64,000 nt of DNA from assembly GCA_964373045.1 (NCBI GenBank), contig CAYJSI010000006.1, positions 878-64,877 of the forward strand, given 5' to 3'. The DNA comes from an uncultured bacterium. GTDB lineage: Bacteria; Omnitrophota; Omnitrophia; Omnitrophales; Aquincolibacteriaceae. Positions within the stretch are counted from its first letter, which is position 1. Each line of letters starts with the position of its first letter. Under the pieces are notes generated by a model. The model made no database searches. It was not told the DNA's origin and saw only the letters and a program-made list of their open reading frames with translations. The position numbers were made by a program, and so were the translations under genes. Shown here piece after piece: positions 2,190 to 64,000 of this stretch.

Positions 2190-2684
2190 ATGAAATCAGC
2201 CCTCGAGATGTTGAAAGGAACTCAGGAAGGACAAGGCGGGGTAGTCTCATTTATATGTAATAATATATACAAATTGTTATCGTATCCCTTTGACCCCCTT
2301 AGTGAACAGTCAACTCCTTCGGAGGCAAGCGAGGCGCCCGCCCTTGAAGTGAGTCGAGAAGGGCAATTTCAGGCTTATGTCAATAACCGGATGAACATCC
2401 TCGTCATGTGGGTGCAGCATATGAAACTTCGGGAAATCAACACGGCAAAACAGCATTTAGAATTCTTTCTTTACGATATGGAACATCATTTTGTGGATCC
2501 TTACGCCGGAAGGGAAATAAGAAACGCCTTCCGGTGGCTCAAGGTTTACGTGAGAATTTATCCTGAAGTTTTCCGGAAAAACCGCGCTCAAAGGGCCTAT
2601 GAAATGATTGCCAGCATTTATGATGCTTTGGGCTTTAAGTTTCCCTTGGCGGAAAGGGAGGACCATGATCGACTTGCACCATAA
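2190..2684 (+). CDS. Hypothetical protein, translationally coupled to the downstream histidine kinase
   Basis: A 164-aa ORF with a good RBS (AAGGAG) whose 3' end overlaps the HK start by 20 nt. I recognise no family. Confidence 0.4.
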   Translation: MKSALEMLKGTQEGQGGVVSFICNNIYKLLSYPFDPLSEQSTPSEASEAPALEVSREGQFQAYVNNRMNILVMWVQHMKLREINTAKQHLEFFLYDMEHHFVDPYAGREIRNAFRWLKVYVRIYPEVFRKNRAQRAYEMIASIYDALGFKFPLAEREDHDRLAP

Positions 2685-3444
2685 CATTGTGAACATTCTT
2701 TACCTCATTAAAGAGATGAGCGGTTCGCATCTTGCCCAGGCTCGGGAGGAGGGGAGATTTGTAAGCGAGGGTGAGCGCCTCTGCCATGCCGAGTGCGTGC
2801 TTGAGAAAATCGCGGCGCAGGCCGAGCGTGCCCTTGCGGTCACAAGGCGCCTCGGTGAGATCATGAAAGGGGAGGGGGCTGAAAGAAAAGGAAAGGCCAG
2901 GCATAAGGCCTCGCTTCCTTTTGTCTGGCGCCGGGTGAAGCGTCTTTTAGCGGAGGAATGCTCGCTTTCAGGTTTTGAGATCTTGGAAAGAATCCCGGAG
3001 CGCTTTCCTGTCATTGACTGCGACCGGGACGCGCTCGCGGAAATTCTCTTTCACCTCGCCAAAAATGCCCTGCAGGCGATGCGGCCAAGTGACCAGAAAC
3101 CAGTTGCCAGCCCCCTGAATGATTCGGTCCACTCACGCCTCATCCTACGCGCCGCTTTGAGTTTTTCCACCCAAGAAGAGCCGGTCGCTTTAATTACGCT
3201 TTCAGATACCGGCCCCGGTATCCCGGAGGAGTGCTTGGCGAAATTATTCTCCCCCTTTTACACCACCAAACCCGAAGGAGTGGGTAACGGCTTAGGGCTT
3301 TATCTTACCCGCGAGCTTGTCTTAAAAAACAAGGGCCAGATTAAAGTCTCAAGCTTTCCCGGCCAGGGGACGAGTTTTACCTTGGAGTTTGGGATCCAGA
3401 AGGCGGAGGGAAAAAAGAGTGAAAGACGGACTGCGATTCGTTAG
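2665..3444 (+). CDS. Cytoplasmic sensor histidine kinase (HATPase_c with a degenerate H-box; no TM segments)
   Basis: N box HLAKNALQAM, G1 DTGPGIP, G2 GVGNGLGLYL and a GTSFTLEF lid are present. A GGGAGG RBS precedes the ATG at 2665. The 3' 194 bp is duplicated downstream. Confidence 0.65.
   Translation: MIDLHHNIVNILYLIKEMSGSHLAQAREEGRFVSEGERLCHAECVLEKIAAQAERALAVTRRLGEIMKGEGAERKGKARHKASLPFVWRRVKRLLAEECSLSGFEILERIPERFPVIDCDRDALAEILFHLAKNALQAMRPSDQKPVASPLNDSVHSRLILRAALSFSTQEEPVALITLSDTGPGIPEECLAKLFSPFYTTKPEGVGNGLGLYLTRELVLKNKGQIKVSSFPGQGTSFTLEFGIQKAEGKKSERRTAIR
3200..3393. repeat. Direct repeat copy 1 (~194 bp, ~97% identical to 4297-4490); covers the 3' coding end of the histidine kinase
   Basis: The nucleotide sequence tttcagataccggccccggtatcccggagga...ggagtttggg recurs with a constant offset of 1097 bp. 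The only differences are a 6-nt patch (cccggccagggg vs cctttgatgggg). Confidence 0.85.
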
Positions 3445-4064: not shown

Positions 4065-4550
4065 ATGAGGACTAAAACTGTCCTTCGCCCCCTCTCGCTT
4101 CTCCTTCTTCTTACTTTTTCCCTCCAATCGATTTTGCTTGCCTCCCCCGGCTTCCCCGCCCTGGCCAATATCGAAGAGAGGCATTTTATCGTTATCACTC
4201 AAATAGAAGGCGCGGGCTGCGCTGTCATTGCCGCGCCGGCGGGAATCCAGGACTGCCGGGTGCATTTTAAAGAAGAACCCTCCGCTGTCATCACGGTTTC
4301 AGATACCGGCCCCGGTATCCCGGAGGAGTGCTTGGCGAAATTATTCTCCCCCTTTTACACCACCAAACCCGAAGGAGTGGGTAACGGCTTAGGGCTTTAT
4401 CTTACCCGCGAGCTTGTCTTAAAAAACAAGGGCCAGATTAAAGTCTCAAGCTTTCCTTTGATGGGGACGAGTTTTACCTTGGAGTTTGGGGTCATTCGCT
4501 CGAAGGTGCCGAAGGCGGGAAGTTTACAGGAGGGAAGCGCTGCCGCTTAG
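4065..4550 (+). pseudogene. Displaced 3' fragment of the histidine kinase gene (last ~65 codons) fused to an unrelated hydrophobic N-terminus; likely non-functional remnant
   Basis: The C-terminal half is the direct-repeat copy of HK residues ITLSDTGPGIP...TSFTLEFG. The N-terminal 78 aa have no kinase features. Confidence 0.4.
4297..4490. repeat. Direct repeat copy 2 (displaced HK 3' end)
   Basis: See copy 1 at 3200-3393. Confidence 0.85.
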
Positions 4551-7846: not shown

Positions 7847-8380
7847 ATGGCCAAGAAACGTGATGATCTTGAAGAGAAAATACTGGATGTCGACGCCAGT
7901 ATGCAGGGCACCATTGCCTTTAAAGACCCCGTGAACCTTCGTATTAATGGAAGCTTTGAAGGAAAGCTCGATACCCGAGGCACTCTCACCATCGGTGAAA
8001 ATGCCAAGGTGAAGGCTAATATTACCGGTGATCGGATCATCGTTGCGGGGAAGGTCACAGGGGATGTTCAAGCCACTCAGAGCATCTCGGTCGTCACACC
8101 CGCCATCATTCAGGGCAATATCACCTCTCCCAAGCTGAGCGTGACGGAGGGGGCCGTGATTGAAGGCCGGGTTTCTATGATCAATGTCCCTCAGGCCGGG
8201 GATGCGCAAGATGTTCTCCTTACCCTGAAAGATGTGGCTCAGTATCTCGAAGTCGAGGCCAAGATTGTCGAGGATTGGGCCCAGAAAAAGAAAATTCCGG
8301 GCCGTTTTGAGAATGGAAACTGGGTTTTCTCAAAATCAGAGATTGACCGCTGGATTCAGCAGGAGAATGTCAAAGTTTGA
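7847..8380 (+). CDS. Bactofilin-domain protein fused to a C-terminal excisionase/MerR-type HTH (HTH_17) DNA-binding domain
   Basis: The beta-helical bactofilin repeats (GTLTIGENAKVKANITGDRIIVAGKVTGDV..IQGNITSPKLSVTEGAVIEGRV) are followed by LTLKDVAQYLEVEAKIVEDWAQKKKIPG, which is HTH_17-like. Confidence 0.55.
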   Translation: MAKKRDDLEEKILDVDASMQGTIAFKDPVNLRINGSFEGKLDTRGTLTIGENAKVKANITGDRIIVAGKVTGDVQATQSISVVTPAIIQGNITSPKLSVTEGAVIEGRVSMINVPQAGDAQDVLLTLKDVAQYLEVEAKIVEDWAQKKKIPGRFENGNWVFSKSEIDRWIQQENVKV

Positions 8381-8383
8381 TCC

Positions 8384-8677
8384 ATGAACAGTCTGTTGAC
8401 CGTCGAAGAGGTCAAAGGTTATCTCGATATTGATCAGCATCAAATCGAAAAGTATTTGAAAGACGGTTCTTTACAAGCCTACAAGATTGGCGGCACCTAC
8501 TTAAGATTTCGCAAAGAAGAGGTGCTCCTCATCCGCGAGCGGCTGCTGAAGAAGATAAAGCACAGCTCCCCAGTTTCAGTTATTTCCCGCATCTGGGATT
8601 TTTGGCGTTTCAATAATTTTTATATCGTTTCCCTCCTCATTGTGATTGCCCTTGCCATCCTCGTCGTCAAAACTTAG
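8384..8677 (+). CDS. Small HTH_17 (excisionase-family) DNA-binding protein with a C-terminal transmembrane anchor
   Basis: The N-terminus LLTVEEVKGYLDIDQHQIEKYLKDGSLQAYKIGG matches HTH_17. The C-terminus FYIVSLLIVIALAILVV is a hydrophobic helix. Confidence 0.4.
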   Translation: MNSLLTVEEVKGYLDIDQHQIEKYLKDGSLQAYKIGGTYLRFRKEEVLLIRERLLKKIKHSSPVSVISRIWDFWRFNNFYIVSLLIVIALAILVVKT

Positions 8678-15670: not shown

Positions 15671-15775
15671 CCGTTATCTCAAGGAAAGGGTTACCCGCGT
15701 TAAGATCCATTCATGCCTGCGCATTCGGAATCCTTTCGGGCATGTGGTATCATTGAGCACAAAGGGGGAGAGCGC

Positions 15776-16171
15776 ATGCGAAAACACAGGCGGGTGACAA
15801 GGGCGCAGGCGAGAAGGGCGGCCGCGATTCCGGCGTCAGTCGATGAGTCTCTTGGTCTTTATTCCAAAATTGCCCACTTAAAATCCCGCATCGAGAAGCT
15901 TGCTGAATCCACAGTAAAGTCAGAGGAGAGGCTGCAGGATATTGAAATCCACCTCAACCTTCTAACCCGTTTAATTACAACCCTTTGTGTTGAAAAGTTT
16001 GGGATGAGAATTGGCGTCCTGAAGCGGTTGATTAAGCGCATCGAAAAAGAAGCCATTCGCGATTCGCAAATTCTCCACCTCGAGTCCCTTTACAAACTGC
16101 CCGTCCCTGAGAAGAAGAGCGGCGCACCACCCCCTCCCTCCAAAAACGACCCCTGGGAAGATATTTCCTAA
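15776..16171 (+). CDS. Hypothetical coiled-coil protein
   Basis: The ATG at 15776 follows an AAGGGGGAG RBS. The protein has a basic N-terminus and heptad-like repeats. The upstream part of the longer ORF lacks an RBS. Confidence 0.3.
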   Translation: MRKHRRVTRAQARRAAAIPASVDESLGLYSKIAHLKSRIEKLAESTVKSEERLQDIEIHLNLLTRLITTLCVEKFGMRIGVLKRLIKRIEKEAIRDSQILHLESLYKLPVPEKKSGAPPPPSKNDPWEDIS

Positions 16172-16226
16172 CTTGTTCTAAATAAATAGGTTAGGATTCC
16201 ATCTGTACGTCCGATAAACATAAGGA

Positions 16227-16254
16227 TTGCAAGCTCTTGTATTTTGATTAAAAT
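16227..16254 (+). promoter_or_regulatory. Putative promoter TTGCAA-16-TAAAAT for the topA run
   Basis: The hexamers lie in the AT-rich stretch ggattgcaagctcttgtattttgattaaaatacacacg, upstream of the structured 5' UTR. Confidence 0.3.
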
Positions 16255-16270
16255 ACACACGTTTTTTTAC

Positions 16271-16338
16271 TGTAGGGGCGGACCCAAGTGTCCGCCCCTA
16301 AACATGAGGGCCGACACACAGGTCCGCCCCTACATCAG
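16271..16338. repeat. Composite GC-rich palindromic element in the topA 5' UTR (TGTAGGGGCGGAC / GTCCGCCCCTA / GTCCGCCCCTACATCAG, mutually exclusive stems)
   Basis: A 10-bp stem, AGGGGCGGAC-ccaagt-GTCCGCCCCT, sits at 16274-16299. A second GTCCGCCCCTACA at 16322-16334 can pair with the same 5' arm. The element shares its GGCGGAC..GTCCGCC and CCCCTACAtCAG modules with the copies near 55.0 kb and 62.2 kb. Confidence 0.7.
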
Positions 16339-16353
16339 CCAGGAACATTCCTT

Positions 16354-18660
16354 ATGAAACTTGTTGTGAACGGTGAAAACAAAGCGATTCAGGGAGCTGC
16401 CACGCTTTCTGAGTTATTAACAGAATTTCGGATTAATCCAAAGACTGTCGTGGTGGAACATAATCGAGCTGTTGTTCCCCGCGAAAGGTTTCCATCCCAA
16501 AGGCTACAGGAGGGGGATACCGTTGAAATTGTGCGTTTTGTCGGCGGCGGGTCGGAGGGAGCCCGAAAAAAACCCAGCCATCTTGTCATCGTAGAGTCTC
16601 CCGCCAAGGCCAAGACCATCAATAAGTATCTCGGAGGCGATTATCAAGTCGAGGCCTCCATGGGCCACGTTCGCGACCTCCCCAAAAGCAAAATGGGGGT
16701 CGATATGAATGCTGAATTTGCCCCGCAGTATATCGTCATGAAAAAGGCTACGAAGACGGTCAGTCATCTCAAAAAACAGGCGAAGGGAAAAAAGGGAATT
16801 TACCTTGCCCCCGATCCTGACCGCGAGGGCGAGGCCATCAGCTGGCATCTCGCCCATATTTTTAAGGAGCAAGACGGCGATGTGACGATTCGCCGGGTGG
16901 TGTTTAACGAAATCACCAAAGAGGCTGTTCAGGAGGCCTTTCGTCATCCCCGTGAAATTGAAATGAATCTTGTCAATGCCCAGCAGGCACGCCGCGTGGT
17001 GGACCGGCTTGTGGGTTACGAATTAAGTCCTTTGCTCTGGCGCAAGGTGGGCCGCGGCCTGAGTGCGGGGCGCGTGCAATCGGTGGCGCTGCGATTGATT
17101 GTGGACCGCGAACGCGAAGTCAAAAATTTCGTGCCTCAGGAATATTGGTCAATTATCGCCAAGCTTTCCTCCGAGCAAACGGAAAATGCGGGAAAAATTT
17201 TCCAGGCTAAGCTCGATAAAATCGGCAAAGAAAAAGCCGATCTTAAGAATCAGGCCGATTCGGAAAATATCCGGGAAGAAATTCTCAAACTCCCTTTCAA
17301 GGTTGAAAATGTAGAAAAAAAAGAGCGGCAGCGGCGCCCCCAGCCTCCCTTTACGACCAGCAAACTTCAGCAGGAGGCCTACAATCGCCTCGGATTTCCC
17401 GCGGCCAAAACCATGAAGGTTGCCCAGAAGCTCTACGAGGGGGTCGAGCTCGGTTCGGAAGGCCCGGTCGGTTTAATCACCTACATGAGAACGGATTCGG
17501 TCCATGTGGCGGCTTCTGCCCGCGCGGAGGCAGCTCAATATGTCCGAAAGAAATTCGGCGACCCCTATCTCCCCAAAGAACCTCCCGTGTATAAATCCAA
17601 GAAGGGGGCCCAAGAGGCCCATGAGGCCATCCGTCCTTCCTCGGTTCATCGAGAACCCGAAACGCTGCGTTCTGTTTTGTCGGCGGATGAATTCAAACTT
17701 TATGATTTGATCTGGCGAAAATTTCTTGCTTCTCAAATGACGCCTGCGATCGACGAAAATATTTCCGTTTCGATCATGGCAGGGGAGCGGTACTTCTTTA
17801 AAACCACGGGCCGCCGCAATCTTTTCCCCGGTTTCGCCATTTTATTCGGGGAAGGGAAGCCGGCCAAAGAGGAGGAAGACGAAAAGGCGGAGAAAGATGA
17901 GGAGATCGAGCTTTCGGCGGAGGAGCTTCCATCGCTTATGGCAGGGGAAATCCTCAAGCTGCATGAACTTCTCGCCAACCAGCATTTTACAAAGCCCCCG
18001 GGCCGTTTTAACGATGCCAGCCTTGTGAAAACCCTGGAAGAAAAAGGAATCGGCCGGCCCAGCACTTATGCCCCGACCCTCTATACACTTCTTGCGCGTG
18101 AGTATGTCAATCGTAATGGGGGAGCGCTGATCCCCTCCGAGCTCGGTCAAACCGTGGCCGATCTTCTGGTGCAGCATTTTCCCAGAATTCTTGATTTTCA
18201 ATTTACCGCCACCATGGAAGAAGAGCTCGATAAGATTGAAGACGGAGAACTCGATTGGGTTCGGGTGGTGAAGGATTTCTACGGGCCCTTTAAGATCGAC
18301 ATGGATGCCGCCCACGAAGAGATGAAAAATATTCGAAGAGAAGTTATCCCCACCGACCATGTCTGCGATATCTGCGGCAAGGGGATGGTGATTAAGTGGG
18401 GACGTTTTGGAAAATTTCTGGCTTGTTCGGGTTTTCCCGATTGTAAATATACGCGATCGATTCCGACGGGATTTCGTTGTCCTGAGCCGGGCTGCGGCGG
18501 GGACCTTGTGAAAAGGATGTCTAAAAATAGGCGCACCTTTTATGGCTGTTCCAAGTATCCCAAGTGCACCCACATTTCGAATAAACTCCCCAAGCAGGAA
18601 TCCGGCATCGGTGAGGATGATACGATTTCTGAGAGCGATCGCGAGACCCTGGATGCTTAA
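16354..18660 (+). CDS. topA: DNA topoisomerase I with an in-frame N-terminal ThiS/MoaD-like ubiquitin-fold domain ending in GGG
   Basis: The first 66 aa (MKLVVNGE...VPRERF...LQEGDTVEIVRFVGGG) resemble ThiS. They run with no stop into the Toprim start LVIVESPAKAKTINKYLG. The Tyr domain and C-terminal Zn ribbons (CDICGKG, CSGFPDC, CPEPGCGG, CSKYPKC) follow. Confidence 0.85.
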   Translation: MKLVVNGENKAIQGAATLSELLTEFRINPKTVVVEHNRAVVPRERFPSQRLQEGDTVEIVRFVGGGSEGARKKPSHLVIVESPAKAKTINKYLGGDYQVEASMGHVRDLPKSKMGVDMNAEFAPQYIVMKKATKTVSHLKKQAKGKKGIYLAPDPDREGEAISWHLAHIFKEQDGDVTIRRVVFNEITKEAVQEAFRHPREIEMNLVNAQQARRVVDRLVGYELSPLLWRKVGRGLSAGRVQSVALRLIVDREREVKNFVPQEYWSIIAKLSSEQTENAGKIFQAKLDKIGKEKADLKNQADSENIREEILKLPFKVENVEKKERQRRPQPPFTTSKLQQEAYNRLGFPAAKTMKVAQKLYEGVELGSEGPVGLITYMRTDSVHVAASARAEAAQYVRKKFGDPYLPKEPPVYKSKKGAQEAHEAIRPSSVHREPETLRSVLSADEFKLYDLIWRKFLASQMTPAIDENISVSIMAGERYFFKTTGRRNLFPGFAILFGEGKPAKEEEDEKAEKDEEIELSAEELPSLMAGEILKLHELLANQHFTKPPGRFNDASLVKTLEEKGIGRPSTYAPTLYTLLAREYVNRNGGALIPSELGQTVADLLVQHFPRILDFQFTATMEEELDKIEDGELDWVRVVKDFYGPFKIDMDAAHEEMKNIRREVIPTDHVCDICGKGMVIKWGRFGKFLACSGFPDCKYTRSIPTGFRCPEPGCGGDLVKRMSKNRRTFYGCSKYPKCTHISNKLPKQESGIGEDDTISESDRETLDA

Positions 18661-19538
18661 TGGAAAAAGAAATCTCGAAATTTTTGGATTTCCTGGTCGC
18701 TGAGAAAAACGCTTCCCCCCACACGGTTAAAAATTACCATATTGATCTGAGGGAATTTGTCATATCTCAAGGGAAAAAAGGTGTCGTGGAGATTACCTAC
18801 CTTGATATCCGCTCCTTTCTTGCTTTCTTAAAGGATCGGGATTATTCCAAAAGCTCGATTGCAAGGAAAGTGGCCTGCCTGCGCTCTTTCTTCAAGTATC
18901 TTGCCCGCGAAAATATTTTAAAGACAAATCCTGCGGCCGGTGTATCCATTCCCAAGCGTGATAAGCGGCTGCCCAAATTTCTCGATGCCGAGGAAGTGAC
19001 ACAACTCCTCGAGGCCCCCTCCAAAAATAACTGGGAAGAGAAAAGGGACCGTGCCATCTTAGAAACGCTTTATAGCTCGGGCCTGCGGGTCAGTGAACTC
19101 GTGGGCTTAAATCACGATGACTTGGACGGCTTCGGGGGGCTTTTGCGCGTGCGGGGAAAAGGCAAGAAGGAGCGGATCGTGCCCGTGGGCCATGTCGCCC
19201 TGAAGGCGATTCAGGAATACGTGGAAAAAAAGCCTCCCAAAGACGGCGAGCCGGCCCTTAAGCGTGCCCTTTATATGAATCGCTCGGGCGGCCGGCTTAC
19301 GGATCGCAGTGTGCGGCGCGTCATTATAAAATATGTCCGCAGGTCAGGCCTCAAGAAAGAAGTCTCGCCCCATATGCTGCGCCACTCCTTTGCCACCCAC
19401 ATGCTGGATCGAGGGGCCGATCTTCGCAGTGTCCAAGAACTTCTGGGGCACGCCAATTTATCCACGACGCAGATCTACACCCACATTACGACGAAACGTC
19501 TTAAAGAAGCTTACGATGCCTCCCACCCCCGCGCTTAA
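18660..19538 (+). CDS. Tyrosine site-specific recombinase, XerC/XerD family
   Basis: An N-terminal SAM-like core-binding domain is followed by the catalytic R..H..R..Y set (RVSEL, HMLRHSFATH, LGHANLSTTQIYTH). The ATG overlaps the topA stop (TAATGG). Confidence 0.85.
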   Translation: MEKEISKFLDFLVAEKNASPHTVKNYHIDLREFVISQGKKGVVEITYLDIRSFLAFLKDRDYSKSSIARKVACLRSFFKYLARENILKTNPAAGVSIPKRDKRLPKFLDAEEVTQLLEAPSKNNWEEKRDRAILETLYSSGLRVSELVGLNHDDLDGFGGLLRVRGKGKKERIVPVGHVALKAIQEYVEKKPPKDGEPALKRALYMNRSGGRLTDRSVRRVIIKYVRRSGLKKEVSPHMLRHSFATHMLDRGADLRSVQELLGHANLSTTQIYTHITTKRLKEAYDASHPRA

Positions 19539-20901
19539 TTTATTTCTCGCCTTCCTTTATAACGCGGCCTTCCTCGTTTTCGGAATGGGTTACCTGCCGA
19601 TTTTTCTCACAAAAATCAGGCAGGCGGAAAGCCCGGCCCGGCTTCTGCGGGAGCGCCTCGGACTCCTTTCTGACTCTCTTTCTCAAAAATGCCGGGGAAA
19701 GGAAGTCATCTGGGTGCATGGCGTGAGCGTAGGCGAAGTCATGGCCGCCCGAAAATTGATTCAGGGTTTCTTGGATCGCGCCCCGGCTTACCGCGTGGTG
19801 CTTACCACCGTGACGCCGACCGGTCAAAGGATTGCAAAGGAAATGGAAGGCGAACGCCTTTCCGTATGTTATTTTCCTTTCGATTTGACCTTTGCGGTTG
19901 AGCGATTCTTCAAAGCCATTCGGCCCCGGTGCCTCCTCTTGGTTGAAACCGAGATTTGGCCGAATCTTTTGTCGGCCGCCAAGCGATTCTCCGTGCCGGT
20001 CGGTATTGTGAACGCCCGCCTTTCCCCCAGATCAAGCGCCCGTTACGGGCGTCTTCCGTTTATTTTTCGGCCTCTCTTCTCCGGCCTTGATTTTGTCCTG
20101 GCTCAAAGCGAGGAAGATGCGCTTCGATTTGTGTCCCTGGGGGTTGCAAGGGATCGGGTCCAGAGCCTTGGCAATATCAAATTTGACGGTGTTGATTTGG
20201 CAGACGCGTTTGCTGCCCCCTCTGAAGCATTAAAAAAACAATGGGGATTTCATCCCCAAGACCGGATCTGGATTTGCGGCAGCACCCATCCGGGTGAAGA
20301 AGAAATCCTGCTGCAAGTTTATGAACGTCTTCAACCCATTTTTCCATCTCTCAAACTCATTCTGGCCCCGCGCCACATTGAGCGATCGACGAAGCTTGCC
20401 CAGCGCATCCGCGCCTCCGGTTGGAAGGTGCGATGTGCAACGGACACCGAGTCCCAAGGTCCTTTGGATGTTCTCTTGTTGGATCGGCTCGGAATCTTGA
20501 AGCAGCTTTATGCCATCGCGGATGTGGTCTTTGTGGGCGGAAGTTTAATCCACCACGGCGGACAAAATCCCATCGAGGCGGCCTGCTTCAAGCGTGCCAT
20601 CCTTCACGGGCCCCACACCTTTCATTTTGAAAAGGTTTATCAGGCCCTTGATTCGGAGGCGGCGGCGCTTGCGGTGCGGGATGCCGAAGGGCTTCATTTG
20701 ACTCTGAAGCGTCTTCTCCATGACGAAGCAGCCTGTACGAGGCTGGGCGAGAGCGCTTTTCGCGTCATCTCGGCACTTCAAGGAGCGACTCAGCGGCACC
20801 TCGATTGGATTTTTGATTTTTTGACTCCGTCGGCACAAGAAAGGATCCACGATGTTGAATTCCATGAAAAGTTATTTCCGTCGGCTGGCGGAAGGATATG
20901 A
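19516..20901 (+). CDS. waaA: 3-deoxy-D-manno-octulosonic acid (Kdo) transferase
   Basis: An N-terminal TM anchor is followed by IWVHGVSVGEV and a C-terminal GT-B domain (GGSL..GGQNPIEA). The start overlaps the xer gene. Confidence 0.85.
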   Translation: MPPTPALNLFLAFLYNAAFLVFGMGYLPIFLTKIRQAESPARLLRERLGLLSDSLSQKCRGKEVIWVHGVSVGEVMAARKLIQGFLDRAPAYRVVLTTVTPTGQRIAKEMEGERLSVCYFPFDLTFAVERFFKAIRPRCLLLVETEIWPNLLSAAKRFSVPVGIVNARLSPRSSARYGRLPFIFRPLFSGLDFVLAQSEEDALRFVSLGVARDRVQSLGNIKFDGVDLADAFAAPSEALKKQWGFHPQDRIWICGSTHPGEEEILLQVYERLQPIFPSLKLILAPRHIERSTKLAQRIRASGWKVRCATDTESQGPLDVLLLDRLGILKQLYAIADVVFVGGSLIHHGGQNPIEAACFKRAILHGPHTFHFEKVYQALDSEAAALAVRDAEGLHLTLKRLLHDEAACTRLGESAFRVISALQGATQRHLDWIFDFLTPSAQERIHDVEFHEKLFPSAGGRI

Positions 20902-62219: not shown

Positions 62220-62231
62220 AGAAAAAGTAGA

Positions 62232-62353
62232 GGCGGACCCGCGTGTCCGCCCAACGTTCATGGTTACCAATGTAATGGCACGGCGCGCCGTGCCATTACG
62301 ATAAGGGCCGACAACCGCCACGAAACCTTCGGCAGGCAGGCGCGGGTCGGCCC
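62232..62353. repeat. Composite palindromic element cluster: GGCGGAC-ccgcgt-GTCCGCC hairpin + 28-bp GTAATGGCACGGCGCGCCGTGCCATTAC palindrome + GGGCCGAC...GTCGGCCCCTACAGCATC
   Basis: It has the same modular organisation as the 16271-16338 element, with the GCACGGCGCGCCGTGC core of 55005-55032. It lies between the response regulator and archease. Confidence 0.75.
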
Positions 62354-62370
62354 CTACAGCATCATTCTCT

Positions 62371-62790
62371 ATGGCTCCCTACTCAATTCTGGACCACGTT
62401 GCCGATATCGGCCTTCGCATCGAGGGAGGAGATCTTCCGACCCTCTTCCGATCGGCCGCGCAGGGTCTCTTTGATTTGATCACGGATGCCCAAAAAATTG
62501 TCCCCCTTTCGGTCGAGCAAGTTTTTGAGATTCGGGCAAAAGACCTGAGTGATTTATTTTTAAAATGGCTGCGCGAGCTGTTATTTACCTTTTCGACGAA
62601 GAAACTCATTTTCGCGGATTTTGAATTTACGAGACTGAGCAGGACTCATCTTCAAGCGAAGGCCCACGGCGGCATCTTTGATCCCAAGCGCCATCCCCAG
62701 AGATACGAAATCAAGGCCGTGACGTATCATGGGTTTAAAATCGAGAAGAAAAAGGAAGGGTGGATCGCCGAAGTTATCTTTGATATATGA
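62371..62790 (+). CDS. Archease (RtcB activator)
   Basis: MAPYSILDHVADIGLRIEGGDL is the archease N-terminal signature. The TGA stop overlaps the rtcB ATG (ATGA). Confidence 0.8.
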   Translation: MAPYSILDHVADIGLRIEGGDLPTLFRSAAQGLFDLITDAQKIVPLSVEQVFEIRAKDLSDLFLKWLRELLFTFSTKKLIFADFEFTRLSRTHLQAKAHGGIFDPKRHPQRYEIKAVTYHGFKIEKKKEGWIAEVIFDI

Positions 62791-64000
62791 CCATTCCCTT
62801 GAACAAAATCGACGAGTGCCGCTGGGAGATCCCGAAAAGTTATAAGAGCGGGATGCGGGTGCCGGGGCTTATTTTTGCGAGCGAGGACATGGTGGTAGGG
62901 GCACGGCGCGCCATGCCCCTACAAAATGACCAGGCCCTGGAACAAGTTGCCAACGTTGCCCACCTTCCGGGGATTGTGAAATATTCCCTTGCCATGCCGG
63001 ACATTCACTGGGGCTATGGATTTCCGATTGGAGGCGTGGCGGCTACGGATCCCGACGAAGGCGGTGTGATTTCTCCGGGCGGAGTCGGTTACGATATTAA
63101 CTGCGGCGTAAGACTCATCCGCACGAATTTAAAAGAGGCCGAGGTCAAACCAAGACTTCGCGAACTCATCGGTGCACTTTTTAATACCATTCCCTGCGGT
63201 GTCGGTCAGTCGGGAGATATCCGCGTGAACAAGCAAGAGCTTAAAAAATTGGTGACTCAAGGGGCGCGGTGGGCTGTGGGGCGCGGTTTGGGAGGTGAGG
63301 ACGATCTTGATCACACTGAAGCGAACGGCGTTCTTGAGGATGCTGATCCTTGCGCAGTCTCCGAAAGGGCTTATGAACGGGGGGCCGATCAGCTCGGAAC
63401 CCTTGGCTCGGGCAACCATTTTTTAGAAGTCCAGGTAGTGGATAAAATTTTTGATTCGGATTCGGCGCGCCAGTTTGATTTAGAAGAAAACCAAGTGACG
63501 GTCATGATCCACTCCGGTTCGCGCGGATTCGGTTATCAAGTGTGTGAAGATTCACTCGAAGCCGCGCGCCGGGCGCTTACGAAGTACAAAATTTCAGTGC
63601 CCGATATCCAACTCGCCTGCGCTCCCGTCAATTCTCCGGAGGGTCGCCAGTACCTCGCCGCCATGCGTGCGGCCGCCAATTATGCCTGGAATAATCGGCA
63701 GTGTCTTCTTGCCCTGACACGCAGCCTTTTCGAGAAATTTTTTAGGATGAGTCCACGCGATCTTGGGATGGATCTCATTTATGATGTGGCCCACAACATT
63801 GCGAAATTCGAGCGTTTCAAAATCGAGGGCAAGGAAAAACTCCTTTGCGTCCACCGCAAAGGTGCCACACGCGCTTTTACGGGCGAGCCGGTGATCATCC
63901 CGGGGGATATGGGCCGCAATTCCTACCTATTAACAGGGACTCGGCAGGCGATGGAGGAAACCTTCGGCACGTCCTGCCACGGCGCGGGCCGGGCCATGTC
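62787..64000 (+). CDS. rtcB: RNA-splicing ligase RtcB (3' end beyond the window)
   Basis: MPDIHWGYGFPIGGVAATD, NCGVRL, GSGNHF and CHGAGR are RtcB metal- and GMP-site motifs. The ORF runs off the window, which is why the ORF track does not list it. Confidence 0.85.
   Translation, partial: MTIPLNKIDECRWEIPKSYKSGMRVPGLIFASEDMVVGARRAMPLQNDQALEQVANVAHLPGIVKYSLAMPDIHWGYGFPIGGVAATDPDEGGVISPGGVGYDINCGVRLIRTNLKEAEVKPRLRELIGALFNTIPCGVGQSGDIRVNKQELKKLVTQGARWAVGRGLGGEDDLDHTEANGVLEDADPCAVSERAYERGADQLGTLGSGNHFLEVQVVDKIFDSDSARQFDLEENQVTVMIHSGSRGFGYQVCEDSLEAARRALTKYKISVPDIQLACAPVNSPEGRQYLAAMRAAANYAWNNRQCLLALTRSLFEKFFRMSPRDLGMDLIYDVAHNIAKFERFKIEGKEKLLCVHRKGATRAFTGEPVIIPGDMGRNSYLLTGTRQAMEETFGTSCHGAGRAM
62895..62922 (+). 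repeat. 28-bp palindromic repeat copy (one mismatch to the 55005 core) read through in frame inside rtcB, encoding VGARRAMPL
   Basis: GTAGGGGCACGGCGCGCCATGCCCCTAC begins at an rtcB codon boundary. The surrounding segment between ASE and NDQALEQ is about 5 aa longer than in RtcB proteins I recall. Confidence 0.7.

What the first reader, a model, noticed from the sequence alone, without database searches (positions are those of the whole stretch)
16354..16590. ThiS/MoaD-like ubiquitin-fold domain with a C-terminal GGG fused in frame to the N-terminus of topoisomerase I
The 66 residues MKLVVNGE...LQEGDTVEIVRFVGGG align position by position with ThiS sulfur-carrier proteins (VNG, VPRE, GD.VEI, terminal GG). 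A 10-residue linker (SEGARKKPSH) runs without a stop into the canonical TopA start LVIVESPAKAKTI. A sulfur-carrier ThiS needs a free GG C-terminus. So this is either a fusion that is proteolytically released, as JAMM-processed CysO/MoaD precursors are, or a beta-grasp domain repurposed as a TopA N-terminal module, or an assembly frameshift that hides a stop.
Basis: partly seen in the sequence, partly recalled or inferred. Interest (0 to 1): 0.55.

Follow-up and report, generated by a model that had tools for sequence, protein, structure and literature searches.

The report
ThiS sulfur carrier fused to topoisomerase I
In a large group of uncultured Omnitrophota bacteria the small ubiquitin-like sulfur-carrier protein ThiS is made as one polypeptide with the essential enzyme DNA topoisomerase I, a real and conserved fusion that probably has to be cut after its Gly-Gly-Gly tail, much as ubiquitin is cut from ribosomal proteins.

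Summary
ATG 16354 opens a 768-aa ORF. Residues 1-66 are a full-length ThiS (TIGR01683, 75 bits against a cutoff of 37) ending in VGGG. A 10-residue linker follows, then a complete TopA. It is not an assembly error: 93 diverged homologues (54-74% identical, mostly named Candidatus Omnitrophota/Omnitrophica) carry the same fusion. All keep GG (91 GGG, 2 AGG), while the linker varies from 5 to 76 residues.

The same syntenic locus (dprA-RDD-small protein-[X]-xerC-waaA-lpxK) occurs in four states:
- fused thiS::topA;
- separate thiS and topA, abutting or overlapping;
- topA alone;
- thiS alone.

So the two parts can each exist alone.

GG is invariant. Pro is absent from the position after it, where Ala or Ser dominate. 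The junction is predicted to be disordered. ThiS scores stay at equivalog level. No internal start or frameshift route exists. I therefore think ThiS is most likely released by endoproteolysis after GGG, as in MoaX/MoaD-MoaE. This is inferred: no protease was found, and the genome's thi genes could not be checked. The main rival is an uncleaved, tethered beta-grasp module.

I found no published description. It is a new variant of a known kind, of moderately high interest.

The parts
15713..16171 (+). Conserved small coiled-coil protein (152 aa, no Pfam family), the upstream neighbour in every related locus
   Evidence: ORF; no significant Pfam hit. Homologous genes ending ...DPW(E/D)xIS sit directly upstream of thiS/topA in L004, L006, L008, L010, L011, L012, L013, L095 and L096.
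16227..16254 (+). Sigma-70-like promoter candidate (TTGCAA-16-TAAAAT)
   Evidence: A consensus match only, 9 of 12; weak evidence.
16271..16334 (+). Very stable GC-rich nested hairpin in the 5' leader, built from two copies of a palindromic element
   Evidence: Fold gives -51.5 kcal/mol, z -9.0, 0 of 200 shuffles as stable. Palindrome copies lie at 16274, 16306 and 62229, against 0 expected. No Rfam family and no TPP riboswitch.
16354..16551 (+). ThiS domain, 66 aa, ending in VGGG (GGG = 16543-16551)
   Evidence: TIGR01683 75.2 bits against cutoff 37.45; PF02597 51.8 bits. Aligns to 1TYG_B. AF2 pLDDT 86-90 over residues 1-62, with a strand/helix order typical of a beta-grasp.
16552..16581 (+). 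Linker SEGARKKPSH; contains an A7 run at 16565-16571; proposed cleavage site lies between 16551 and 16552
   Evidence: No stop or start codon. AF2 pLDDT is below 50 for residues 63-71. In homologues the linker is hypervariable, 5-76 aa.
16582..18660 (+). DNA topoisomerase I proper: Toprim (aa 77-187), Topoisom_bac (aa 202-640), two Zn ribbons (from aa 670); stop at 18658-18660
   Evidence: TIGR01051 790 bits against cutoff 456; PF01751, PF01131, PF01396. Catalytic-Tyr motif GLITYMRTDS is present in the translation.
18660..19538 (+). xerC-type tyrosine recombinase, the conserved downstream neighbour; its start overlaps the topA stop
   Evidence: ORF. Phage_integrase-family genes sit at the same position in all related loci.

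Best explanation
This is a genuine, evolutionarily conserved translational fusion of the thiamin-type sulfur-carrier protein ThiS to the N-terminus of the essential type IA topoisomerase TopA. It is characteristic of a large clade of Candidatus Omnitrophota. It belongs to a conserved thiS-topA gene pair that exists in related genomes either as two abutting genes or as one ORF. In this window TopA can only be translated as the fusion. The most likely working model has three steps. (1) The 768-aa protein is made as a pro-protein. (2) An unidentified peptidase acting in trans cuts the disordered junction directly after Gly66 (VGGG|S). (3) This releases a ThiS with a free Gly-Gly carboxylate, which can be adenylated and thiocarboxylated for thiazole/thiamin synthesis, and a TopA carrying a short basic N-terminal tail. 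This is the same logic as ubiquitin-ribosomal-protein fusions and the MoaD-MoaE fusion MoaX. Shown: the fusion, its conservation, its separability, and the absence of other routes to separate products. Inferred: the cleavage, the protease, and the thiamin role. The confidence given (0.55) is for the whole statement including cleavage; the reality and conservation of the fusion alone I put at about 0.97.
For: Reality and conservation:
- 85 of the best 120 full-length TopA homologues (59-74% identical) carry ThiS+Toprim+Topoisom_bac+Zn_ribbon.
- 8 more came from the N-terminal searches and 2 from the metagenome scan.
- Where sources give a name, it is Candidatus Omnitrophica/Omnitrophota.

ThiS identity is retained:
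- 87 of 87 domains hit the TIGR01683 thiS equivalog and no other carrier family.
- They are about as similar to ordinary free ThiS (39-55%) as to each other (mean 49%).

Signature of a cleavage site:
- GGG in 91 of 93 and AGG in 2 of 93, although the linker that follows varies from 5 to 76 aa and is unalignable.
- The residue after GGG is Ala 31, Ser 30, Lys 17, Arg 5.
- Pro is never at that position, although it makes up 13% of linker residues and occupies the next position in 18 of 93.

Separability, at the same syntenic locus:
- thiS is a free gene next to topA in L095 (ends GGG*, then an RBS and ATG), L011 (GGGS*), L012 (GGGA*, TGATG overlap) and L096 (GGGSIHGR*).
- thiS is kept where topA has left the locus in L013/L014.
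- topA stands alone in L008 and L010.

No other route to two products:
- No start codon lies between GGG and the Toprim strand.
- The first in-frame ATG is Met103, beyond the conserved LVIVESP segment that opens the Toprim domain and, in E. coli TopA, carries the catalytic Glu (my recollection).
- There is no conserved slippery site or out-of-frame stop, and the Gly codons vary synonymously.

Accessibility: AF2 gives ThiS pLDDT 86-90 and the tail plus linker (63-71) below 50.

Precedents and context:
- MoaX must be cleaved at its GG to be active (PMC4326299).
- A Deinococcus JAMM cleaves MoaD-MoaE (PMC8832034).
- ThiS-ThiG fusions with GGG retained exist in metagenomes.
- Omnitrophota generally encode thiamin synthesis (PMC10066038; thiC/thiE/thiL in at least 167 of 176 complete genomes, bioRxiv 10.64898/2026.06.07.730766).
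- One Omnitrophica Thi4 clusters with thiS and thiF (PMC13325395).
Against: - No candidate protease (JAMM/MPN+ or other), no ThiF-type E1 and no thiG/thi4/thiH lies in the 64-kb window or in the flanks (2.5-10 kb each side) of the related loci examined.
- Genome-wide content of this organism could not be examined.
- thiG is reported in only 38 of 176 complete Omnitrophota genomes (bioRxiv 10.64898/2026.06.07.730766).
- No TPP riboswitch precedes the gene.
- GGG could be kept simply as a flexible hinge.
- The count at the position after GGG comes from phylogenetically related sequences and is not a probability.
- Several lineages have dropped thiS from the locus without visible harm to topA. 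This fits either model.
- There is no experimental evidence of processing.
Confidence: 0.55

Rival explanations
1. The fusion is real but is never cleaved. The ThiS-derived beta-grasp domain stays tethered to TopA as an integral ubiquitin-like module. It might recruit a partner protein, modulate DNA binding together with the basic tail, or act as a folding or solubility aid. It no longer carries sulfur.
For: No protease or thi partner genes were found near the gene in any locus. There is no TPP riboswitch. thiG is rare in complete Omnitrophota genomes (bioRxiv 10.64898/2026.06.07.730766). Some linkers are only 5 residues long, which would hold the domain close to Toprim. N-terminal extensions of TopA are tolerated in the phylum, where unfused enzymes have basic tails of 9-43 residues.
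Against: As far as I know, integral ubiquitin-like domains usually lose the terminal Gly-Gly. Here GG is kept in 93 of 93, next to a linker with no conserved length or sequence. All domains still score as the ThiS equivalog. Orthologous thiS is a free gene in sister lineages, and it persists where topA is absent from the locus. Linker lengths of 5-76 residues argue against a fixed geometric role.
Confidence: 0.28
2. ThiS at this locus is not a thiamin sulfur carrier. It is a ubiquitin-like protein modifier (as with TtuB, SAMPs or Urm1) functionally coupled to TopA, and the conserved thiS-topA pairing reflects that coupling.
For: The thiS-topA pairing is conserved without any other thi gene over deep divergence and in both fused and split forms. 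GG is strictly kept. There is no TPP riboswitch.
Against: All 87 domains match the ThiS equivalog model and none matches TtuB, SAMP, MoaD or CysO models. No E1-like gene was seen nearby. The idea is entirely speculative, and the pairing can equally be a neutral operon accident that became fixed.
Confidence: 0.1
3. The apparent fusion is an artefact. Either a sequencing or assembly frameshift (for example in the A7 run at 16565-16571) hides a stop, or the two proteins are made separately by an internal start or programmed frameshift.
For: An A7 homopolymer lies in the linker. It forms an A AAA AAA heptamer, and a -1 slip there would terminate 8 codons later. Split thiS/topA arrangements do exist in relatives.
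Against: The same in-frame fusion is present in 93+ independent, diverged sequences, with linkers that lack the A run. The window's linker aligns in frame with relatives. There is no in-frame ATG/GTG/TTG before Met103. There is no conserved slippery site or nearby out-of-frame stop. A slip at the A run would give ThiS a 17-residue tail, not a free GG.
Confidence: 0.02

Closest known systems
MoaX of Mycobacterium tuberculosis and MoaD-MoaE of Deinococcus radiodurans (fused molybdopterin synthases)
   Same: A ThiS/MoaD-family beta-grasp sulfur carrier with its Gly-Gly retained is fused N-terminally to a downstream protein. Cleavage at the GG is required for activity (PMC4326299). In Deinococcus a JAMM peptidase does the cutting (PMC8832034).
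   Different: There the partner is the carrier's own pathway enzyme (MoaE). Here it is an unrelated essential DNA enzyme, the carrier is ThiS rather than MoaD, and no protease is known.
Ubiquitin-ribosomal protein fusions (UBA52/RPL40, RPS27A) of eukaryotes
   Same: A beta-grasp protein ending in Gly-Gly is translated as the N-terminal part of an unrelated, essential housekeeping protein. It is released by cleavage straight after GG, and Pro at the next position is disfavoured (from my own knowledge of ubiquitin processing).
   Different: Those are eukaryotic, the modifier is ubiquitin and the deubiquitinases are known. For the Omnitrophota protein, cleavage is only inferred.
ThiS-ThiG fusion proteins
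   Same: ThiS with GGG retained runs in frame into a downstream enzyme. I found this in metagenome loci L080 and L088.
   Different: The partner is the thiazole synthase that uses ThiS. As far as I could find, their processing has not been characterised either.
Canonical free ThiS (B. subtilis YjbS/ThiS 1TYG, E. coli ThiS 1F0Z/1ZUD)
   Same: Same family, same length, same EIVxFVGGG C-terminal motif. Matches the equivalog model.
   Different: Canonical ThiS ends at the Gly-Gly, giving a free carboxylate, and is usually encoded with thiF/thiG/thiH or thiO (my own knowledge). Here the GG is internal and the neighbours are dprA, topA and xerC.
QbsE/QbsD and other sulfur carriers with C-terminal extensions
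   Same: Carriers are made with residues beyond GG that a JAMM peptidase trims before activation (from my own knowledge, not checked in a paper here). In my metagenome sample 34 of 80 ThiS ORFs run 1-25 codons past GGG, and the free Omnitrophota thiS genes end in GGGA, GGGS or GGGSIHGR.
   Different: Those extensions are a few residues long, not a 700-residue enzyme.

Membership tests
ThiS sulfur-carrier protein (TIGR01683 / PF02597) | Sequence match to the family model above the curated cutoff, over the full length | tested here: met
   75.2 bits against 37.45 (TIGR01683, positions 2-64 of 64). 51.8 bits against 22.5 (PF02597). 87 of 87 related domains also match.
ThiS sulfur-carrier protein (TIGR01683 / PF02597) | Beta-grasp fold | tested here: met
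   End-to-end alignment to the solved ThiS chains 1TYG_B and 2K5P_A. The AF2 model gives pLDDT 86-90 for residues 1-62, with strands 2-5, 8-11, 32-36, 39-41 and 56-61 and a helix at 18-24. No separate fold search was run on the domain.
ThiS sulfur-carrier protein (TIGR01683 / PF02597) | Gly-Gly motif at the end of the domain | tested here: met
   VGGG at residues 63-66. GGG in 91 of 93 and AGG in 2 of 93 fused homologues.
ThiS sulfur-carrier protein (TIGR01683 / PF02597) | The Gly-Gly is the actual C-terminus (free carboxylate for adenylation and thiocarboxylation) | tested here: not met
   In the primary translation product the chain continues for 702 more residues with no stop. It could be met only after proteolysis.
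ThiS sulfur-carrier protein (TIGR01683 / PF02597) | Partner enzymes in the genome (ThiF-type adenylyltransferase; ThiG or Thi4 thiazole synthase) | not testable with these tools
   None lies in the 64-kb window or in the flanks (2.5-10 kb each side) of related loci. The rest of the genome is not available. Phylum-level reports: thiC/thiE/thiL common, thiG in 38 of 176 (bioRxiv 10.64898/2026.06.07.730766); a thi4-thiS-thiF cluster in one Omnitrophica MAG (PMC13325395).
Bacterial type IA DNA topoisomerase I (TIGR01051 topA_bact) | Full-length match above cutoff with Toprim, the topoisomerase core and Zn ribbons | tested here: met
   790.3 bits against 456.4, model positions 1-631 of 632. PF01751, PF01131 and PF01396 all above cutoff.
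Bacterial type IA DNA topoisomerase I (TIGR01051 topA_bact) | Catalytic residues: the acidic Toprim motif (VESP, DPDREGE) and the active-site Tyr motif | tested here: met
   LVIVESP, DPDREGEAISWHL and GLITYMRTDS are all present in the translation, and most of their residues are invariant or nearly invariant across 120 homologues. That these are the catalytic motifs comes from my own knowledge of E. coli TopA.
Ubiquitin-like pro-proteins processed at Gly-Gly (Ub-ribosomal fusions, MoaX type) | Beta-grasp domain ending in GG, followed in frame by further polypeptide | tested here: met
Ubiquitin-like pro-proteins processed at Gly-Gly (Ub-ribosomal fusions, MoaX type) | A dedicated GG-specific peptidase (JAMM/MPN+ or a cysteine DUB) encoded by the organism | tested here: inconclusive
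   None lies in the window or in any neighbourhood examined.
Ubiquitin-like pro-proteins processed at Gly-Gly (Ub-ribosomal fusions, MoaX type) | Demonstrated cleavage into two products | not testable with these tools
   Needs protein chemistry or metaproteomics. Only indirect sequence signatures are available.

The most novel reading that the evidence does not exclude
An essential housekeeping enzyme of a whole bacterial clade is obligatorily synthesised as the C-terminal extension of a ubiquitin-like protein. It would depend on an undiscovered Gly-Gly-specific protease for maturation, making this a bacterial counterpart of the ubiquitin-ribosomal-protein fusions. In the stronger form, this ThiS acts as a ubiquitin-like modifier or regulator functionally coupled to TopA, reminiscent of SUMO and eukaryotic topoisomerases, and not merely as a thiamin sulfur carrier.
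Probability: 0.15. Interest if true: 0.85.

Novelty: new variant of a known kind. Interest (0 to 1): 0.6.

Why it matters
Sulfur carriers of the ThiS/MoaD family are regarded as the prokaryotic ancestors of ubiquitin. A ThiS translated in one piece with an unrelated essential enzyme, with its Gly-Gly kept across a wide clade, would extend the 'ubiquitin as pro-protein fused to a housekeeping protein' arrangement to bacteria. It predicts a processing protease in Omnitrophota that has not been identified.

The natural series of fused, split, thiS-only and topA-only loci gives a ready comparative test. One can ask which genes (thiF, thiazole synthase, JAMM) track with which state.

Practically, these proteins are annotated only as 'type I DNA topoisomerase'. 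Pathway reconstructions that look for a thiS gene could therefore miss the ThiS moiety in such genomes. I did not test whether any do.

Tried and rejected
- **Exact-match look-ups.** Look-ups of the window protein (768 and 790 aa) in the contig index found nothing, although the identical protein P0267 is in the protein collection.
- **Genome-contig scan.** The single scan was wasted. I therefore have no species-level taxonomy from that source.
- **Representative-library profile search.** The search showed only 3 fused clusters. Full-length fused and unfused TopAs probably fall into the same 50% clusters (my guess). That result therefore understates how widespread the fusion is.
- **Last protein search.** I ran it with a free 68-aa ThiS and it returned only 4 hits, because short queries share few indexed words.
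- **Literature.** Searches for a prior description are weak negatives, because 'ThiS' is indistinguishable from the word 'this'.
- **TPP riboswitch or other known RNA upstream.** None was found.
- **Internal translation start.** Rejected. There is no ATG/GTG/TTG before Met103.
- **Programmed frameshift or stop after GGG.** Rejected. There is no conserved slippery site or out-of-frame stop, and the Gly codons vary.
- **A7 run as an error or slip site.** Rejected. It is not conserved, and a slip there would not yield a free GG.
- **Autoproteolysis by a nucleophilic residue after GGG.** Unlikely. That residue is Ala or Lys as often as Ser.
- **'Free thiS at this locus always carries a one-residue cap.'** I held this idea briefly and dropped it after L095 was found to end exactly in GGG*.
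- **NJ tree.** The tree of TopA cores is too rough to decide between one ancient fusion with several fissions and repeated fusions.
Full report
**1. The observation**

The sequence at 16100-16800 and the ORF list show a single open frame from GTG 16288 / ATG 16354 to the stop at 18658-18660.
- ATG 16354 is preceded by AGGA nine bases upstream.
- It is the start of the identical public protein P0267 (768 aa) and it matches the N-termini of the homologues.
- Residues 1-66 match the NCBIfam equivalog model for ThiS (TIGR01683) at 75.2 bits against a cutoff of 37.45, over model positions 2-64 of 64. They match Pfam ThiS at 51.8 bits against 22.5.
- The best solved relative is B. subtilis ThiS (1TYG chain B). 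It aligns to the last residue, where both end in FVGGG.
- The ten residues SEGARKKPSH follow without a stop or a start codon. LVIVESPAKAKTI then opens a complete bacterial topoisomerase I: TIGR01051 at 790 bits against 456, with Toprim, the core domain and two zinc ribbons.

**2. It is not an artefact**

- A search with the first 200 residues found seven fragments with the same ThiS-GGG-linker-LVIVESP arrangement at 54-68% identity. The profile search added one more.
- A search with the full protein showed that 85 of the best 120 TopA homologues (59-74% identical) carry ThiS, Toprim, the core and the zinc ribbons in one protein.
- Where a source gives a name, it is 'type I DNA topoisomerase [Candidatus Omnitrophica/Omnitrophota bacterium]'.
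- Two more fused loci came from an independent metagenome scan.
- These sequences come from many assemblies and are strongly diverged, so a hidden frameshift in this window is excluded. The window's own linker also aligns in frame with its relatives.

**3. Anatomy of the junction across the family**

- In 93 fused sequences the ThiS domain ends in GGG 91 times and in AGG twice.
- The segment between that motif and LVIVESP is 5 to 76 residues long, of low complexity (K 20%, A 17%, P 13%, E 9%, S 9%) and unalignable. Its C-terminal half is strongly basic, and it usually ends in GPKN, GPRN or similar.
- That ending matches the basic N-terminal tail of unfused Omnitrophota TopAs (MAKAKK...GPKN).
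- The residue directly after GGG is Ala (31), Ser (30), Lys (17), Arg (5) or, rarely, another. It is never Pro, although Pro fills the next position in 18 of 93. Because the sequences are related, this count is suggestive, not a statistic.
- All 87 ThiS domains tested match the ThiS equivalog model and no other sulfur-carrier family.
- They are as similar to ordinary free ThiS from soil metagenomes (39-55% to the window) as to each other (mean column identity 49%). The domain has therefore not drifted away from canonical ThiS.
- An AlphaFold2 model of the whole protein (pTM 0.72) gives pLDDT 86-90 for residues 1-62. The strand and helix order is that of a beta-grasp. Residues 63-71 (VGGG plus linker) fall below 50, and TopA itself is confident.

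**4. The locus exists in four states**

The neighbourhood dprA - RDD protein - (DUF7544) - small coiled-coil protein - [X] - xerC - waaA - lpxK - lpxL/Elm1 - heptosyltransferases is conserved. [X] takes one of four forms:

| State | Arrangement | Loci |
|---|---|---|
| A | Fused thiS::topA | window, L001, L004/L005, L006/L007 (L015 and L049 also carry the fusion; their flanks were not examined) |
| B | Separate thiS and topA | L095, L011, L012, L096 |
| C | topA alone | L008/L009, L010 |
| D | thiS alone (67 aa, ends GGGA*), followed directly by xerC | L013, L014 |

Details of state B:
- L095: thiS ends exactly GGG*, then a 17-base spacer containing AGAGGAG, then the topA ATG.
- L011: thiS ends GGGS*, with one base before the ATG.
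- L012: thiS ends GGGA*, with a TGATG overlap.
- L096: thiS ends GGGSIHGR*, with an 11-base overlap.

In state C the intergenic gap is 170-200 bases and contains no thiS remnant.

A rough neighbour-joining tree of TopA cores nests the unfused proteins among the fused ones. The tree is not good enough to decide between one old fusion with several fissions and losses, and repeated fusions.

The free thiS genes resemble the fused domains slightly more than they resemble generic ThiS. Synteny is the stronger argument for orthology.

The series shows that the two moieties can each exist alone. It also shows that thiS is kept for its own sake.

**5. How the two products could arise**

- In the window there is no ATG, GTG or TTG in frame between GGG and the Toprim strand.
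- The first in-frame ATG is Met103. That lies beyond the conserved LVIVESP segment that opens the Toprim domain and, in E. coli TopA, carries the catalytic Glu (my recollection). A functional TopA must therefore be translated as the fusion.
- Across six fused loci the Gly codons vary synonymously. No slippery sequence or nearby out-of-frame stop is conserved, so programmed frameshifting is not a route to a free ThiS.
- The A7 run in the window's linker is not conserved. A slip there would give ThiS a 17-residue tail.
- Autoproteolysis through a nucleophile after GGG is unlikely, because Ala and Lys are as common there as Ser.

A ThiS can work as a sulfur carrier only with a free Gly-Gly carboxylate (established knowledge of ThiS-ThiF-ThiG chemistry). 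Five further points bear on this:
- the domain retains every ThiS hallmark;
- the motif is invariant beside a hypervariable linker;
- the junction is predicted to be disordered;
- sister lineages make the same protein free-standing;
- integral ubiquitin-like domains usually lose their Gly-Gly (my own knowledge).

The best-supported model is therefore release by a trans-acting peptidase that cuts after Gly66.

Precedents:
- The MoaD-MoaE fusion MoaX must be cleaved at its GG (PMC4326299).
- A Deinococcus JAMM peptidase cleaves MoaD-MoaE (PMC8832034).
- In my metagenome sample of 80 ThiS genes with the same C-terminal motif, 42 stop right after GGG. Two are fused to ThiG (confirmed by Pfam). About 34 run on for 1-25 codons. 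ThiS made with something beyond GG is therefore not rare.

**6. What remains unshown**

- No JAMM/MPN+, E1-like or thi gene lies in the window. I read all translations and scanned the ten I could not recognise. None lies in any of the neighbourhoods examined either.
- No TPP riboswitch or other Rfam family lies in the window or in six related loci.
- Published surveys say that most Omnitrophota encode thiamin synthesis (PMC10066038). A preprint on 176 complete genomes reports thiC, thiE, thiL and iscS in at least 167 but thiG in only 38 (bioRxiv 10.64898/2026.06.07.730766). One Omnitrophica Thi4 is clustered with thiS and thiF and works better in E. coli when the host's ThiF/ThiS are present (PMC13325395).
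- A thiamin role for this ThiS is therefore plausible but not demonstrated.

The main rival is an uncleaved, tethered beta-grasp module. A more speculative one is a ubiquitin-like modifier coupled to TopA.

**7. Comparison and novelty**

- The protein is a member of the TopA family on every test I could run.
- Its N-terminal domain is a ThiS by sequence, fold and motif. As translated, it fails one defining feature of a working ThiS: a free C-terminus.
- It works most like MoaX and the ubiquitin-ribosomal-protein fusions. It differs from MoaX in that the partner is an unrelated essential enzyme, and from the ubiquitin case in being bacterial with no known protease.
- I found no published description, but these searches are weak because 'ThiS' cannot be told from 'this'.
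- The proteins are in public databases, labelled only as topoisomerase I.

I rate it a new variant of a known kind, with interest 0.6. The fusion and its natural split/fused series are solid and would be surprising to specialists. The mechanism is inferred.

Noticed in passing
window 16271-16334; also 62229-62254: A GC-rich palindromic element (AGGGGCGGAC-N6-GTCCGCCCCT) occurs twice in tandem in the thiS::topA leader and once more in another intergenic region, against 0 expected by chance. In the leader the two copies fold into a very stable nested hairpin (-51.5 kcal/mol, z -9) just upstream of the ribosome-binding site. It matches no Rfam family, and it is not a canonical terminator because no T run follows. 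It may be a REP-like repeat or a translational control element.
   Followed up: partly
window 16565-16571: An A7 run in the linker forms an in-frame A AAA AAA heptamer. A -1 slip there would terminate 8 codons later (…KKNPAILSS*). It is not conserved in relatives, so it is probably incidental, but it is a likely site for homopolymer sequencing errors.
   Followed up: yes
L013 4001-4204 and L014 2367-2570: In these related contigs thiS (67 aa, ending GGGA*) sits between the small coiled-coil gene and xerC, with topA missing from its usual place. The essential topA must lie elsewhere in those genomes.
   Followed up: partly
L016-L094 (metagenome ThiS loci): Of 80 ThiS ORFs sharing the E[IV]V[HQR]FVGGG end, only 42 stop right after GGG. 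About 34 continue for 1-25 codons (for example GGGSRYQVGLATRLATC* in three contigs, GGGSVHAHS* in two). C-terminally extended ThiS precursors may therefore be common in soil bacteria.
   Followed up: partly
L088 3001-3969; L080 2160-3026: These are ThiS-ThiG fusion proteins with the GGG retained (Pfam ThiS plus ThiG at 358 and 312 bits). They are another case where the carrier's C-terminus is buried in a fusion.
   Followed up: yes
window 2608-3444 and 4065-4550: Two ORFs share a nearly identical stretch of about 55 residues at the end of a histidine-kinase ATPase domain (…SDTGPGIPEECLAKLFSPFYTTKPEGVGNGLGLYLTRELVLKNKGQIKVSSFP…). The second ORF looks like a truncated duplicate, with only a partial HATPase_c (61 bits).
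   Followed up: partly
window 15713-16171: A small coiled-coil protein with no Pfam family, ending in …DPWEDIS, is conserved directly upstream of thiS/topA in every related locus examined. Its function is unknown.
   Followed up: partly
window 7847-8380 and 8384-8677: A bactofilin domain is fused to a C-terminal HTH_17 DNA-binding domain. The next small gene carries HTH_17 plus a predicted membrane helix. This is an unusual pairing of cytoskeletal and DNA-binding domains.
   Followed up: no
window 62371-64000: An archease-like gene (by eye) is followed by rtcB (RNA ligase), with overlapping stop and start. rtcB runs off the end of the window.
   Followed up: no
window 19333-20901: The longest ORF for waaA (Kdo transferase) overlaps xerC by about 200 bases. 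The true start is probably the internal Met near MPPTPALNLF…, as in the shorter (434-456 aa) orthologues in related loci.
   Followed up: no
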